A DNA stretch of 64,000 bases from the NCBI RefSeq assembly GCF_024298765.1, contig NZ_CP101210.1; one strand, written 5' to 3'. The DNA is from Escherichia coli. Lineage in GTDB: Bacteria > Pseudomonadota > Gammaproteobacteria > Enterobacterales > Enterobacteriaceae. Of the stretch, positions 43,862-46,800 are shown piece after piece. The stretch's first letter is position 1; each line of letters opens with the position of its first letter. A program made the position numbers.

Positions 43862-46800
43862 GCTGCTCCACCCCGCGTCCGTGGATGCGCACTATACTCT
43901 GCTCGCGTTTTCATGCAACCTTTTTTTTACCCCGATCACGGATTTGGCATGATTTTGAACAAAAACAAATCACTAAAGCCTATTTTTTGTGCAAAATTTG
44001 CGTCAGGGAGAGGCTGCTCATTTCATTAAACGCGGTGGTTTGTTATCTTCGTTGCGCCTTATTTTTTAACCTGAAGAAGAGAACAATGAAAGGACGTTGG
44101 GTAAAGTACCTTCTTATGGGCACGGTTGTGGCAATGCTTGCCGCCTGCTCTTCCAAACCAACCGATCGCGGACAGCAATATAAAGACGGGAAATTTACCC
44201 AGCCTTTCTCTCTGGTGAACCAGCCAGATGCCGTTGGCGCGCCGATTAATGCCGGTGATTTTGCCGAGCAAATTAACCATATCCGTAATTCGTCACCGCG
44301 TCTGTATGGCAACCAGAGTAATGTTTATAACGCGGTGCAAGAGTGGCTGCGCGCAGGCGGTGATACCCGCAATATGCGCCAGTTCGGCATTGATGCCTGG
44401 CAGATGGAAGGTGTCGACAACTATGGTAACGTGCAGTTTACAGGCTATTACACGCCGGTAATTCAGGCGCGCCATACCCGTCAGGGCGAGTTCCAGTATC
44501 CGATTTATCGTATGCCGCCAAAACGTGGTCGTCTGCCGTCTCGTGCGGAGATCTACGCAGGAGCGCTGAGTGATAAATATATTCTCGCTTACAGTAACTC
44601 CCTGATGGATAACTTCATTATGGATGTGCAGGGTAGCGGGTATATCGACTTTGGTGATGGCAGTCCGCTTAACTTTTTCAGCTATGCAGGGAAAAACGGT
44701 CATGCCTATCGCAGCATTGGTAAGGTGTTGATCGACCGTGGCGAAGTGAAAAAAGAAGATATGTCGATGCAGGCGATTCGTCACTGGGGCGAAACACACA
44801 GTGAAGCGGAGGTTCGCGAGCTGCTGGAACAGAACCCGTCTTTCGTCTTCTTTAAACCGCAATCTTTTGCACCGGTGAAAGGGGCAAGTGCGGTGCCGCT
44901 GGTTGGCCGTGCTTCTGTTGCCTCCGATCGTTCAATTATTCCGCCAGGTACTACCTTACTGGCAGAAGTGCCGCTGCTGGATAATAACGGCAAATTTAAC
45001 GGTCAGTATGAACTGCGTCTGATGGTGGCGCTGGATGTCGGTGGCGCAATCAAAGGCCAACACTTCGATATCTATCAAGGGATCGGGCCGGAAGCCGGGC
45101 ACCGCGCAGGTTGGTACAACCACTATGGACGTGTCTGGGTGCTGAAAACGGCTCCGGGCGCAGGTAACGTCTTTAGCGGCTGATGTGATATTCTGTATAC
45201 CGTTTTGACGGATACGACAGGGTGAGGGGTAACCTCACATCCTGATTATTGACTAAGTGCGCGTTGTTCATGCCGGATGCGGCGTGAACGCCTTATCCGG
45301 CCTACAAATCTGGCAGAAGTGCCGCTGCTGGATAATAACGGCAAATTTAACGGTCAGTACGAATTGCGTCTGATGGTGGCGCTGGATGTCAGTGGCGCAA
45401 TCAAAGGCCAACACTTCGATATCTATCAAGGGATCGGGCCGGAAGCCGGACACCGCGCAGGTTGGTACAACCACTATGGACGTGTCTGGGTGCTGAAAAC
45501 GGCTCCGGGCGCAGGTAACGTCTTTAGCGGCTGATGTGATATTCTGTATGCCGTTTTTACGGATACGACAGGGTGAGGGATAACCTCGCCCTTTTTATTC
45601 TGAGGTGCTATGTCTGTGGTAATTAGTGATGCATGGCGTCAGCGTTTTGGTGGCACAGCGCGTCTGTATGGTGAAAAAGCGTTGCAACTGTTTGCTGACG
45701 CGCATATTTGTGTGGTTGGTATCGGTGGTGTCGGTTCCTGGGCGGCGGAAGCGCTGGCGCGCACGGGGATTGGCGCAATCACGCTTATCGATATGGATGA
45801 TGTGTGCGTCACCAATACCAATCGGCAAATTCATGCCCTGCGCGATAACGTTGGGCTGGCAAAAGCGGAAGTCATGGCGGAACGTATTCGCCAGATTAAC
45901 CCGGAGTGCCGTGTAACGGTGGTGGATGATTTCGTGACGCCGGATAACGTAGCGCAATATATGAGTGCCGGTTATTCGTACGTGATTGATGCCATTGATA
46001 GTGTACGGCCCAAAGCGGCGCTGATTGCTTATTGTCGGCGCAATAAAATCCCGCTGGTCACGACCGGTGGCGCGGGTGGGCAGATTGACCCGACGCAGAT
46101 TCAGGTTACCGATCTGGCGAAAACGATTCAGGACCCGCTGGCGGCGAAGTTGCGCGAGCGCCTGAAAAGCGATTTTGGCGTAGTGAAAAACAGTAAAGGT
46201 AAGCTCGGCGTGGATTGCGTGTTTTCTACTGAAGCGCTGGTGTACCCGCAGTCAGACGGTACGGTGTGTGCGATGAAAGCCACGGCAGAAGGGCCGAAGC
46301 GGATGGATTGTGCATCTGGATTTGGCGCGGCAACGATGGTGACCGCCACCTTTGGGTTTGTTGCGGTTTCTCATGCGCTGAAGAAGATGATGGCGAAAGC
46401 GGCGCGTCAGGGGTAAACAATCAGGTCGGATGCGACGCGAACGTCTTATCCGACCTGGTTCTGTGCTTAAACCTGCTTCGCCGCAGCGATAATCGCCTCG
46501 CTTAACGCATTCAACCCCTGGCTGCGTGAGGCGCTAAGCTGCGCACGTAATCCCAGCTCATCAAACAATGCCAGTGGTGACTGTGCCTGCAACTCGGCGG
46601 CGGTTTTCCCCTCAACGGCAGTCAACAGCACCGCCAGCAGGCCGCGCACTATACGTCCTTCGCTGTCGCCAAAGAAGTGCATTTTACCGTTTTCAGCCAC
46701 GGTATATCCCAGCCAGACGCGGTTTTCGCATCCGGCAATCTCTTTAGCCTGCGCTTTTAACTCGTCTGGCAAAGCCGGAAGCTGTTTCCCCAGCATGATC

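What the first reader, a model, noticed from the sequence alone, without database searches (positions are those of the whole stretch)
44958..45589. About 280-bp duplication of the mltA 3' end separated by a REP element
The final ~75 codons of mltA plus ~55 bp downstream are repeated 351 bp later with about 6 substitutions, creating a pseudo-ORF (45277..45534) that encodes the MltA C-terminus. The divergence implies the duplication is not recent. It mirrors the argA case.
Basis: seen in the sequence. Interest (0 to 1): 0.4.

Follow-up and report, generated by a model that had tools for sequence, protein, structure and literature searches.

The report
Duplicated mltA tail beside a REP
One poultry-associated E. 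coli lineage carries a second, dead copy of the last 74 codons of the cell-wall gene mltA behind a small repeat element, most likely a scar of sloppy recombination with DNA from another strain; it is real but ordinary.

Summary
Window 44959-45236 (last 74 codons of mltA, the stop, 53 nt downstream) recurs at 45310-45587: 278 nt, 7 substitutions, no indels. A 73-nt spacer with one y-type REP lies between. It is not an assembly artefact: 73 of 5,426 complete E. coli genomes carry the junction, and the 60 listed are identical over 1.3 kb. One carrier is ST117.

The site has three alleles. The short one has only the mltA terminator and matches other genera. The K-12-type has a two-REP BIME inside that terminator. 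The window allele keeps the left half of the BIME joined to a second mltA tail.

Six of the seven differences are polymorphisms found in other Escherichia alleles. Only one is private: G319S in copy B, in a motif invariant in 80 species.

Copy B continues the haplotype of the upstream mltA body. Copy A plus spacer looks like a BIME-type allele. Best model: incoming BIME-type DNA recombined homologously on the left and illegitimately on the right. Copy A completes the working gene. Copy B is a truncated 3D-domain pseudogene that still supplies the only complete terminator.

Interest is low: a new instance of a known kind of REP-associated polymorphism.

The parts
44086..45183 (+). mltA, intact (365 aa); its last 74 codons and stop lie in copy A
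   Evidence: ORF and translation. Pfam MltA and 3D domains. Annotated mltA with protein WP_000678650.1, the same accession as in an ST131 strain.
44809..44957 (+). Inferred interval of the left, homologous crossover between resident and incoming DNA
   Evidence: The mltA body 44401-44900 is ST131-like (2 differences in 500 nt against 13-14 per 300 nt for other alleles). 44958A, one base outside the repeat, is shared only with strain 042. This is inference.
44959..45236 (+). Copy A: the functional mltA 3' end, the stop, and 53 nt downstream
   Evidence: Its haplotype carries states of BIME-type alleles: 45009T and 45013C as in strain 042, 45199A and 45207G as in E. coli E69, 45229G as in the upstream hairpin copy of BIME alleles.
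45195..45215 (+). Small hairpin after the mltA stop, GTAT(A)CCGT-TTTG-ACGGATAC; repeated in copy B at 45546-45566
   Evidence: RNA fold. The two copy-A variants 45199 and 45207 fall in its bulge and loop.
45219..45238 (+). Truncated terminator hairpin (t1): AGGGTGAGG-GGTAA-CCTCAC with no T-run
   Evidence: Fold. The terminator scan does not call it. It is identical to the upstream hairpin copy of K-12-type alleles.
45237..45309 (+). Spacer: the left part of the mltA-tcdA BIME (35 nt flank, y-type REP, AAAT)
   Evidence: 73/73 identical to K-12-like, IAI39 and 042 alleles and absent from short alleles.
45272..45305 (+). y-type REP, reading ...GGCCTAC on the mltA-sense strand
   Evidence: Sequence, hairpin fold, and a high copy number in every genome (median 38 matching places per genome for a query containing it).
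45309..45310 (+). Novel junction CAAAT|CTGGCAG: BIME linker joined to mltA codon 292, with 1-nt (C) microhomology
   Evidence: Comparison with the K-12-type linker CCTACAAATCATGC and with mltA CCTTACTGGCAG. Unique in the window. Present in 73 of 5,426 genomes.
45310..45587 (+). Copy B: dead copy of the mltA 3' end (pseudo-ORF 45277-45534), inferred to be the resident original 3' end
   Evidence: Its 5' 142 nt differ from ST131 only at the private 45391A, and its 3' 136 nt are identical to PCN033. G319S falls in LDVGGAIKG, invariant in 80/80 species loci. It covers only 3D-domain profile positions 23-72 of 72. RefSeq marks it as a pseudogene.
45570..45597 (+). The only complete intrinsic terminator (t2): 9-bp stem, 5-nt loop, T-run
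   Evidence: Terminator scan and fold. The same hairpin plus T-run is conserved in Citrobacter, Enterobacter and Phytobacter.
45610..46416 (+). tcdA, the downstream gene; its upstream context equals that of short alleles
   Evidence: ORF, annotation, alignment.

Best explanation
This is a lineage-restricted 351-bp insertion-duplication. It was most likely created in one step when DNA from a strain with the BIME-type mltA-tcdA spacer recombined into a strain with the BIME-less (short) spacer. The incoming fragment paired homologously inside mltA, with the left crossover somewhere in 44809-44957. Its other end was broken in the BIME linker 4-5 nt past the y-type REP. That end was joined illegitimately, with 1 nt of microhomology, to the resident mltA at codon 292. 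The product reads: resident mltA body, donor mltA tail (copy A) with truncated hairpin and REP, then the resident's own mltA tail (copy B), terminator and tcdA. mltA stays intact because the insert brings its own 3' end and stop. Copy B is a non-functional fragment. The mltA transcript probably now runs about 350 nt further, to the copy-B terminator. Shown: the structure, the three alleles and their frequencies, the ancestral state, the junction, the clonality of the carriers, and the allelic nature of 6 of the 7 differences. Inferred: the donor/recipient assignment, the one-step mechanism, and the effect on transcription.
For: Three alleles and exact breakpoints. The junction is in 73 of 5,426 genomes and the BIME allele in 2,755. 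All 73 carriers are at least 99% identical over 1,301 bp and the 60 listed are 100% identical. One carrier is ST117 (PMC6256689). The spacer is 73/73 identical to BIME alleles. Copy B continues the ST131-like haplotype of the upstream mltA body, while copy A and the base just upstream (44958A) carry states of BIME-type alleles; 6 of the 7 differences segregate elsewhere in Escherichia. The single private change is G319S in copy B, in a motif invariant in 80/80 species loci. No allele with a second spacer or BIME after copy B exists, which a two-step in-situ route would predict. Close natural relatives of both hypothetical parents exist, at 99.1% and 99.3%. The short architecture with the same terminator is ancestral in the family. 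Only copy B has a full terminator.
Against: Neither parent is sampled exactly: the best matches to each reconstructed parent still differ at 4 sites. The haplotype argument rests on few sites. Copy A differs from ST131 at 3 of 142 sites against 1 of 142 for copy B. Copy B's 3' half and tcdA are not ST131-like, so the resident haplotype is itself a mosaic. One-sided homology plus illegitimate joining is best documented in naturally transformable bacteria, not E. coli (my own knowledge). The whole structure could have formed earlier in an unsampled lineage and been imported as a unit.
Confidence: 0.5

Rival explanations
1. The duplication arose in place, in an ancestor that had the BIME-type allele. 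Replication slippage or unequal sister-strand exchange joined the BIME linker (CAAAT|C) to mltA 351 bp upstream, giving a true tandem duplication. The second spacer and BIME were then lost by deletion between the two 20-nt hairpin repeats. Later imports of foreign alleles made the copies differ.
For: The 20-nt repeats AGGGTGAGGGrTAACCTCr flanking the BIME are real and appear recombinogenic. Short alleles come in an upstream-type (ST131) and a downstream-type (PCN033) hairpin version. In Escherichia sp. MOD1-EC7003 the hairpin-plus-BIME unit is amplified at least 3 times. The BIME is old in the genus, being present in E. albertii. Copy B ends with the downstream-type hairpin, as a deletion between the repeats would leave.
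Against: It needs at least three events where one suffices. No intermediate allele is present in 5,426 genomes. The mltA body of the carriers is nearly identical to ST131, which has the short allele. Six of the seven differences are imported polymorphisms and sit on both copies, so several separate imports would be needed within an otherwise clonal set of carriers.
Confidence: 0.25
2. The break and join were made by a REP-directed activity. Candidates are the REP-associated transposase TnpA-REP (cuts single-stranded DNA at C|T and transfers strands), DNA gyrase (cleaves y-type REPs; subunit exchange), or SbcCD acting on the BIME hairpin. This concerns the source of the illegitimate junction and is compatible with either origin model above.
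For: TnpA-REP cleaves at C|T in BIME linkers and at more than 400 nt from a BIME, joins cleaved ends, and was proposed to capture flanking gene fragments (PMC3333891). The mltA side of the junction is TTAC|TGGC, a C|T. Gyrase preferentially cleaves y-type REPs in BIMEs (PMC6379681), and gyrase cleavage complexes are proposed to mediate illegitimate recombination (PMC11164529). The argA duplication has the same polarity, with a junction 3 nt past the CTAC end of a y-type REP against 4-5 nt here. Bracketed REP clusters number 2 of 13, against 3 of 1,500 random positions.
Against: The linker side of the junction is not a C|T on either strand (read from the sequence). One C|T among the possible breakpoint positions is expected by chance about 40% of the time (my estimate). 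None of 11 further REP clusters in 200 kb of the same genome has bracketing repeats, and the two positive cases are the ones that drew attention to this window. Whether the carriers have tnpA-REP was not checked.
Confidence: 0.15
3. The duplication is maintained because it is useful: copy B supplies a promoter, a regulatory RNA or a small protein, or keeps tcdA in its native upstream context.
For: Copy B with its terminator reproduces exactly the short-allele context upstream of tcdA. The 85-aa ORF is open and matches the 3D domain.
Against: No promoter-like site in 44800-45700. No Rfam family apart from tRNAs in 36-48 kb. The ORF's ATG lies inside the REP stem with no visible ribosome-binding site. 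The ORF lacks the signal peptide and the first third of the 3D domain. Its one private change hits an invariant residue. RefSeq calls it a pseudogene. About 99% of E. coli genomes do without it.
Confidence: 0.05
4. It is an assembly artefact or a chance similarity.
For: None found.
Against: 278 nt at 97.5% identity. The same junction in 73 independent complete assemblies. Fixed differences between the copies.
Confidence: 0.01

Closest known systems
BIME/REP presence-absence and copy-number polymorphism in E. coli intergenic regions (Ton-Hoang et al. 2012, PMC3333891; Bachellier et al. 1997, cited from memory)
   Same: The same element types (a y-type and a z2-type REP with a linker) downstream of a gene. 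They are present, absent or amplified depending on the strain.
   Different: Here half of the BIME is replaced by a 258-nt piece of the upstream coding sequence plus the hairpin. The variant therefore carries a gene fragment rather than only more or fewer REPs.
REP sequences at the join points of tandem chromosomal duplications (Shyamala, Schneider and Ames 1990, Salmonella; cited from memory, not read here)
   Same: A duplication whose novel junction lies at a REP element.
   Different: Those are large duplications formed by recombination between two distant REPs. Here only one partner is a REP-adjacent linker, the other is ordinary coding sequence 351 bp away, and the junction has 1 nt of homology.
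Homology-facilitated illegitimate recombination (de Vries and Wackernagel 2002; Prudhomme et al. 2002; cited from memory)
   Same: One end is anchored in homology and the other joined at a microhomology, with a net insertion of donor DNA. This is inferred from the haplotypes and the junction.
   Different: It was described for foreign DNA in naturally transformable species. Here donor and recipient are alleles of the same locus, so the outcome is a partial gene duplication. The process was not observed.
Gene 3'-end duplications left by integrative elements (attL/attR at tRNA or protein-gene 3' ends)
   Same: An insert that carries its own copy of the target gene's 3' end keeps the gene intact and leaves the displaced original 3' end as a downstream direct repeat.
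   Different: There is no integrase and no element. The 'insert' is only 73 nt of resident BIME sequence plus the gene tail.
argA 3'-end duplication in the same window (7739-8012)
   Same: Gene tail plus downstream spacer, a y-type REP reading ...CCTAC on the gene-sense strand, 3-5 nt, then a second copy of the gene tail. The REP is absent from the single-copy allele.
   Different: It is shorter (about 118 nt), with copies far more diverged (84% identical). It is more widespread: 97 genomes at 99% or more and 229 at 95-99%. Both copies are about equally distant from the sampled single-copy allele.

Membership tests
E. coli REP (y type) / BIME | Imperfect palindrome of about 35 nt with the conserved GTAG/CTAC tetranucleotide at one end | tested here: met
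   45272-45305 GCCGGATGCGGCGTGAACGCCTTATCCGGCCTAC. It folds as a bulged hairpin.
E. coli REP (y type) / BIME | Extragenic and highly repeated in the genome | tested here: met
   It lies after the mltA stop. Queries containing it match a median of 38-40 places per genome.
E. coli REP (y type) / BIME | A BIME is two REPs in inverted orientation separated by a linker | tested here: not met
   The window allele has only the y-type REP. The z2-type partner and most of the linker, present in K-12-type alleles, are missing. It is a truncated BIME.
Simple in-situ tandem duplication | Two complete head-to-tail units with one novel junction | tested here: not met
   The unit is 351 bp, but the second unit lacks the 73-nt spacer: copy B runs straight into CCCTTTTT and tcdA.
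Simple in-situ tandem duplication | Copies identical at birth, so differences should be private new mutations | tested here: not met
   Six of the seven differences are polymorphisms shared with other alleles.
Homology-facilitated illegitimate recombination | Illegitimate junction with little or no homology at one end | tested here: met
   CAAAT(C)|TGGCAG, with 1 shared nucleotide.
Homology-facilitated illegitimate recombination | The inserted segment comes from a different genome than the flanks | tested here: inconclusive
   The haplotype pattern favours it, but the informative sites are few and neither parent is sampled exactly.
Homology-facilitated illegitimate recombination | The process depends on a homologous anchor and RecA | not testable with these tools
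   This needs a genetic experiment.
TnpA-REP-mediated rearrangement | Breakpoints at C|T dinucleotides on the strand carrying a REP with a 5' GTAG | tested here: inconclusive
   The mltA side is TTAC|TGGC. The linker side is not C|T on either strand. Cleavage rules are from PMC3333891.
TnpA-REP-mediated rearrangement | tnpA-REP gene present in the host | not tested
   The yafL-fhiA locus of the carriers was not examined.
Integrative element with att duplication | An integrase and element cargo between the direct repeats | tested here: not met
   Only 73 nt lie between the copies, all of it resident BIME sequence.
Functional MltA / 3D-domain paralogue | Complete domain, export signal, conserved motif residues | tested here: not met
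   The 85-aa ORF covers profile positions 23-72 of 72 of the 3D domain only. It has no N-terminal lipoprotein signal. It carries G319S in the invariant LDVGGAIKG motif. RefSeq marks it as a pseudogene.

The most novel reading that the evidence does not exclude
The CTAC end of y-type REPs may be a preferred in-vivo break-and-join point, through TnpA-REP, gyrase or hairpin nucleases, that occasionally captures the 3' end of the upstream gene. The mltA and argA duplications are two independent events with the same polarity and a junction 3-5 nt past CCTAC. They would then be natural footprints of REP-associated recombination, a process so far shown only in vitro.
Probability: 0.12. Interest if true: 0.55.

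Novelty: new member of a known kind. Interest (0 to 1): 0.2.

Why it matters
Its direct importance is small. It is a neutral-looking structural variant that marks one E. coli lineage (ST117-type, common in poultry). It could confuse gene calling, read mapping or primer design at mltA-tcdA. It also illustrates a general caution: sequence divergence between the two copies of a bacterial duplication cannot be read as age when recombination with other strains can supply the differences at birth. The mltA-tcdA spacer turns out to be a small hotspot of REP-associated rearrangement, with absent, single, amplified and gene-capturing forms. That makes it a convenient natural test bed for how REP/BIME elements remodel their surroundings.

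Tried and rejected
- **Intermediate allele.** I searched for an allele with copy B followed by a second spacer and BIME. None exists in 5,426 genomes.
- **Exact parents.** I searched for a BIME allele with the copy-A haplotype and a short allele with the copy-B haplotype. The best matches still have 4 mismatches each.
- **Independent duplications in other species.** None of 80 Enterobacteriaceae loci has a second mltA C-terminus.
- **Generality of REP-bracketing repeats.** None of 11 further REP clusters in 200 kb of the same genome has one, so I dropped the idea that REPs routinely sit between long target duplications.
- **TnpA-REP C|T rule at the junction.** Only one of the two parental breakpoints fits. 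Inconclusive.
- **Promoter or known RNA in copy B.** None found.
- **Integrative-element remnant.** Rejected, because nothing but BIME sequence lies between the copies.
- **Literature.** A search for this specific duplication found nothing relevant.
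Full report
**1. The observation.**
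The window is E. coli and is 100% identical at this locus to strain 104 from a chicken. mltA occupies 44086-45183 on the + strand. The segment 44959-45236 (copy A) recurs at 45310-45587 (copy B). Copy A holds mltA codons 292-365, the stop and 53 nt downstream. The repeat is 278 nt long, ungapped, with a start-to-start spacing of 351. There are seven substitutions:

| Position (copy A / copy B) | Bases | Location |
|---|---|---|
| 45009 / 45360 | T / C | coding, synonymous |
| 45013 / 45364 | C / T | coding, synonymous |
| 45040 / 45391 | G / A | coding, Gly319 to Ser in copy B |
| 45099 / 45450 | G / A | coding, synonymous |
| 45199 / 45550 | A / G | after the stop |
| 45207 / 45558 | G / T | after the stop |
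| 45229 / 45580 | G / A | after the stop |

The 73-nt spacer 45237-45309 contains one y-type REP at 45272-45305. The 85-aa ORF 45277-45534 exists. It matches only positions 23-72 of the 72-position Pfam 3D domain. RefSeq annotates 45304-45534 as an N-terminally truncated pseudogene.

**2. Three alleles at this site.**
Across 5,426 complete E. coli genomes the same 1.2-kb query maps to loci of about 850, about 1,013 or 1,201 bp. Alignment and the K-12-type sequence show what they are.
- **Short allele** (for example ST131). The mltA stop is followed by a small hairpin, then the intrinsic terminator AGGGTGAGG-GrTAA-CCTCrCCCTTTTT, then tcdA. The spacer is 76 bp.
- **Mid allele** (K-12, O157:H7, IAI39, 042; 2,755 genomes). 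A BIME sits inside the terminator. It consists of a y-type REP, a 34-nt linker and a z2-type REP. About 20 nt of the hairpin is repeated on each side of it. The upstream hairpin copy has lost the T-run.
- **Full allele** (the window; 73 genomes). It is identical to the mid allele from mltA through the y-type REP and four more bases (...GGCCTACAAAT). Then, instead of the rest of the linker, it continues with CTGGCAGAAG, which is mltA codon 292 onward, and runs through the complete terminator into tcdA.

The novel junction has one shared base (C). Only copy B ends in a complete terminator (45570-45592 plus the T-run). Copy A's hairpin is truncated.

**3. Ancestral state.**
In 80 species-representative loci from Enterobacteriaceae the mltA-tcdA spacer is typically about 75 bp. 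Citrobacter sedlakii, C. amalonaticus, Enterobacter mori and Phytobacter have the short architecture with the same terminator hairpin. E. albertii, Escherichia sp. E1V33 and E. coli E69 have the BIME, so it is old within the genus. E. coli short alleles come in two versions, one with the upstream-type hairpin (ST131) and one with the downstream-type (PCN033). That would fit secondary loss by deletion between the 20-nt repeats. In Escherichia sp. MOD1-EC7003 the unit of hairpin plus BIME is tandemly repeated at least three times. No other species representative has a second mltA C-terminus. The site is thus a small hotspot of REP-associated rearrangement, and the full allele is one rare outcome.

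**4. Age and origin.**
All 73 carriers are at least 99% identical to the window across 1,301 bp, and the 60 listed are 100% identical. Many are avian or APEC isolates. APEC O2-211 is ST117 (PMC6256689).

Against this clonality, the two copies within a genome differ by 2.5%. A table of variable sites in ten other alleles shows where those differences come from.
- 45009T and 45013C are found in strain 042.
- 45199A and 45207G are found in E. coli E69.
- Both states of 45099 are found among the other alleles.
- 45229 is the standing difference between the upstream and downstream hairpin copies.
- Only 45391A is private. It changes Gly319 in LDVGGAIKG, a motif invariant in all 80 species loci. That is what one expects of a copy released from selection.

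**5. Which copy is which.**
The body of mltA upstream of the repeat (44401-44900) is almost identical to ST131, with 2 differences in 500 nt. Other alleles differ at 13-14 sites per 300 nt.
- **Copy B.** Its first 142 nt continue that haplotype, with only the private change differing. Its last 136 nt are identical to the short allele of PCN033.
- **Copy A.** It carries BIME-lineage states, as does 44958A just outside the repeat. The spacer is 73/73 identical to BIME alleles.

The simplest reading is that copy B is the resident's original 3' end and that copy A plus the spacer arrived from a BIME-type strain. The left crossover was homologous, somewhere in 44809-44957. The right end was an illegitimate join of a donor end, broken in the BIME linker, to the resident mltA.

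Natural alleles close to both reconstructed parents exist, at 99.1% and 99.3%, but neither is exact. The rival in-situ route needs a tandem duplication, then a deletion between the hairpin repeats, then several imports. Its predicted intermediate is absent from all 5,426 genomes. I put about 0.5 on the one-step import model and about 0.25 on the in-situ route.

**6. What made the break.**
The literature offers three candidates.
- **TnpA-REP.** It cleaves single-stranded DNA at C|T in linkers and at more than 400 nt from a BIME. It can join the ends, and it was proposed to capture flanking gene fragments (PMC3333891).
- **Gyrase.** It preferentially cleaves y-type REPs (PMC6379681), and its cleavage complexes are a proposed route to illegitimate recombination (PMC11164529).
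- **Hairpin cleavage by SbcCD.** The two REPs can pair with the linker as a loop, and the junction lies 3 nt into that loop, where hairpin cleavage by SbcCD would be conceivable. This rests on my own knowledge of SbcCD.

The mltA-side breakpoint is a C|T but the linker side is not, which is about what chance allows. None of these can be decided here.

**7. The argA parallel.**
argA lies on the minus strand, with its stop at 7980-7982. Its last 33 nt plus the 85-nt spacer (7896-8012) are repeated at 7739-7857 with 84% identity. One y-type REP at 7861-7895 lies between the copies. A single-copy allele (AVS0530) lacks that REP, and K-12 has only a 61-bp spacer.

On the gene-sense strand both cases read: gene tail, then a y-type REP ending in CCTAC, then 3-5 nt, then the second gene tail. 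That shared geometry is the most intriguing point. However, a scan of 200 kb more of the same genome found no bracketing repeat at any of 11 further REP clusters. The overall count of 2 of 13 against 3 of 1,500 random positions is biased by how this window came to attention.

**8. Function.**
- **mltA.** It is intact. Its protein accession is the same as in ST131.
- **Copy B.** It has no promoter-like site and no known RNA family. There is no ribosome-binding site ahead of its ATG, which lies inside the REP stem. It encodes a truncated domain.
- **Likely consequence (inferred).** The mltA mRNA extends through the REP and copy B to the terminator at 45570-45597, and tcdA keeps the upstream context of short alleles.

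About 99% of E. coli genomes lack the duplication. I regard it as a neutral scar.

**9. Verdict.**
This is a new instance of a known kind of REP/BIME-associated structural polymorphism. It is already flagged as a pseudogene by automatic annotation but not, as far as I could find, described in the literature. Interest is low, at 0.2. The residual novel reading is a REP-end-directed gene-tail capture mechanism.

Noticed in passing
window 7739-8012: The argA 3' end (33 nt) plus its 85-nt downstream spacer is duplicated (84% identity), with one y-type REP (7861-7895) between the copies. The polarity and junction offset match the mltA case. The REP is absent from a single-copy allele, and K-12 has only a 61-bp argA-recD spacer. 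The duplication-type allele is at 99% identity or more in 97 genomes and at 95-99% in 229 of 5,426.
   Followed up: partly
window 43474-43877 (minus strand): Four tandem initiator tRNA-Met genes with a 110-bp period (Rfam/tRNA hits). K-12 and 042 have three and IAI39 and PCN033 have two at the same site, so the array varies in copy number between strains.
   Followed up: partly
window about 10800-43470: About 32 kb lies between amiC and the tRNA-fMet array. It is absent from K-12, IAI39, PCN033 and 042, where amiC abuts the tRNAs. It encodes a type VI secretion cluster (TssM/IcmF, VgrG, TssF, TssA/VasJ, VasL, TssC/VipB, an OmpA-domain protein) plus a PTS EIIBC: a genomic island at the metV-type tRNA site.
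   Followed up: partly
L008 (Escherichia sp. MOD1-EC7003) about 3600-4219: Downstream of mltA the roughly 163-bp unit of terminator hairpin plus BIME is tandemly repeated at least 3 times, up to the contig end. It is preceded by an AT-rich insert of about 230 bp that splits the first hairpin.
   Followed up: no
L002 819-838 and 982-1001 (K-12-type allele); L003 and L006 for short alleles: The BIME of the K-12-type allele is flanked by a 20-nt direct repeat of the terminator hairpin, AGGGTGAGGGrTAACCTCr. E. coli short alleles exist in an upstream-type and a downstream-type hairpin version. That suggests repeated loss of the BIME by deletion between these repeats.
   Followed up: partly
window 45195-45215 and 45546-45566: A small conserved hairpin, GTAT(n)CCGT-TTTn-ACGGATAC, sits just after the mltA stop. 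The two positions that differ between the copies (45199, 45207) are its bulge and a loop base, so the stem is unchanged. Its function is unknown.
   Followed up: no
window 46419-46460: Another REP-like palindrome (19-nt arms, 84% complementary) lies between the convergent genes tcdA and csdE. It has no flanking duplication.
   Followed up: partly
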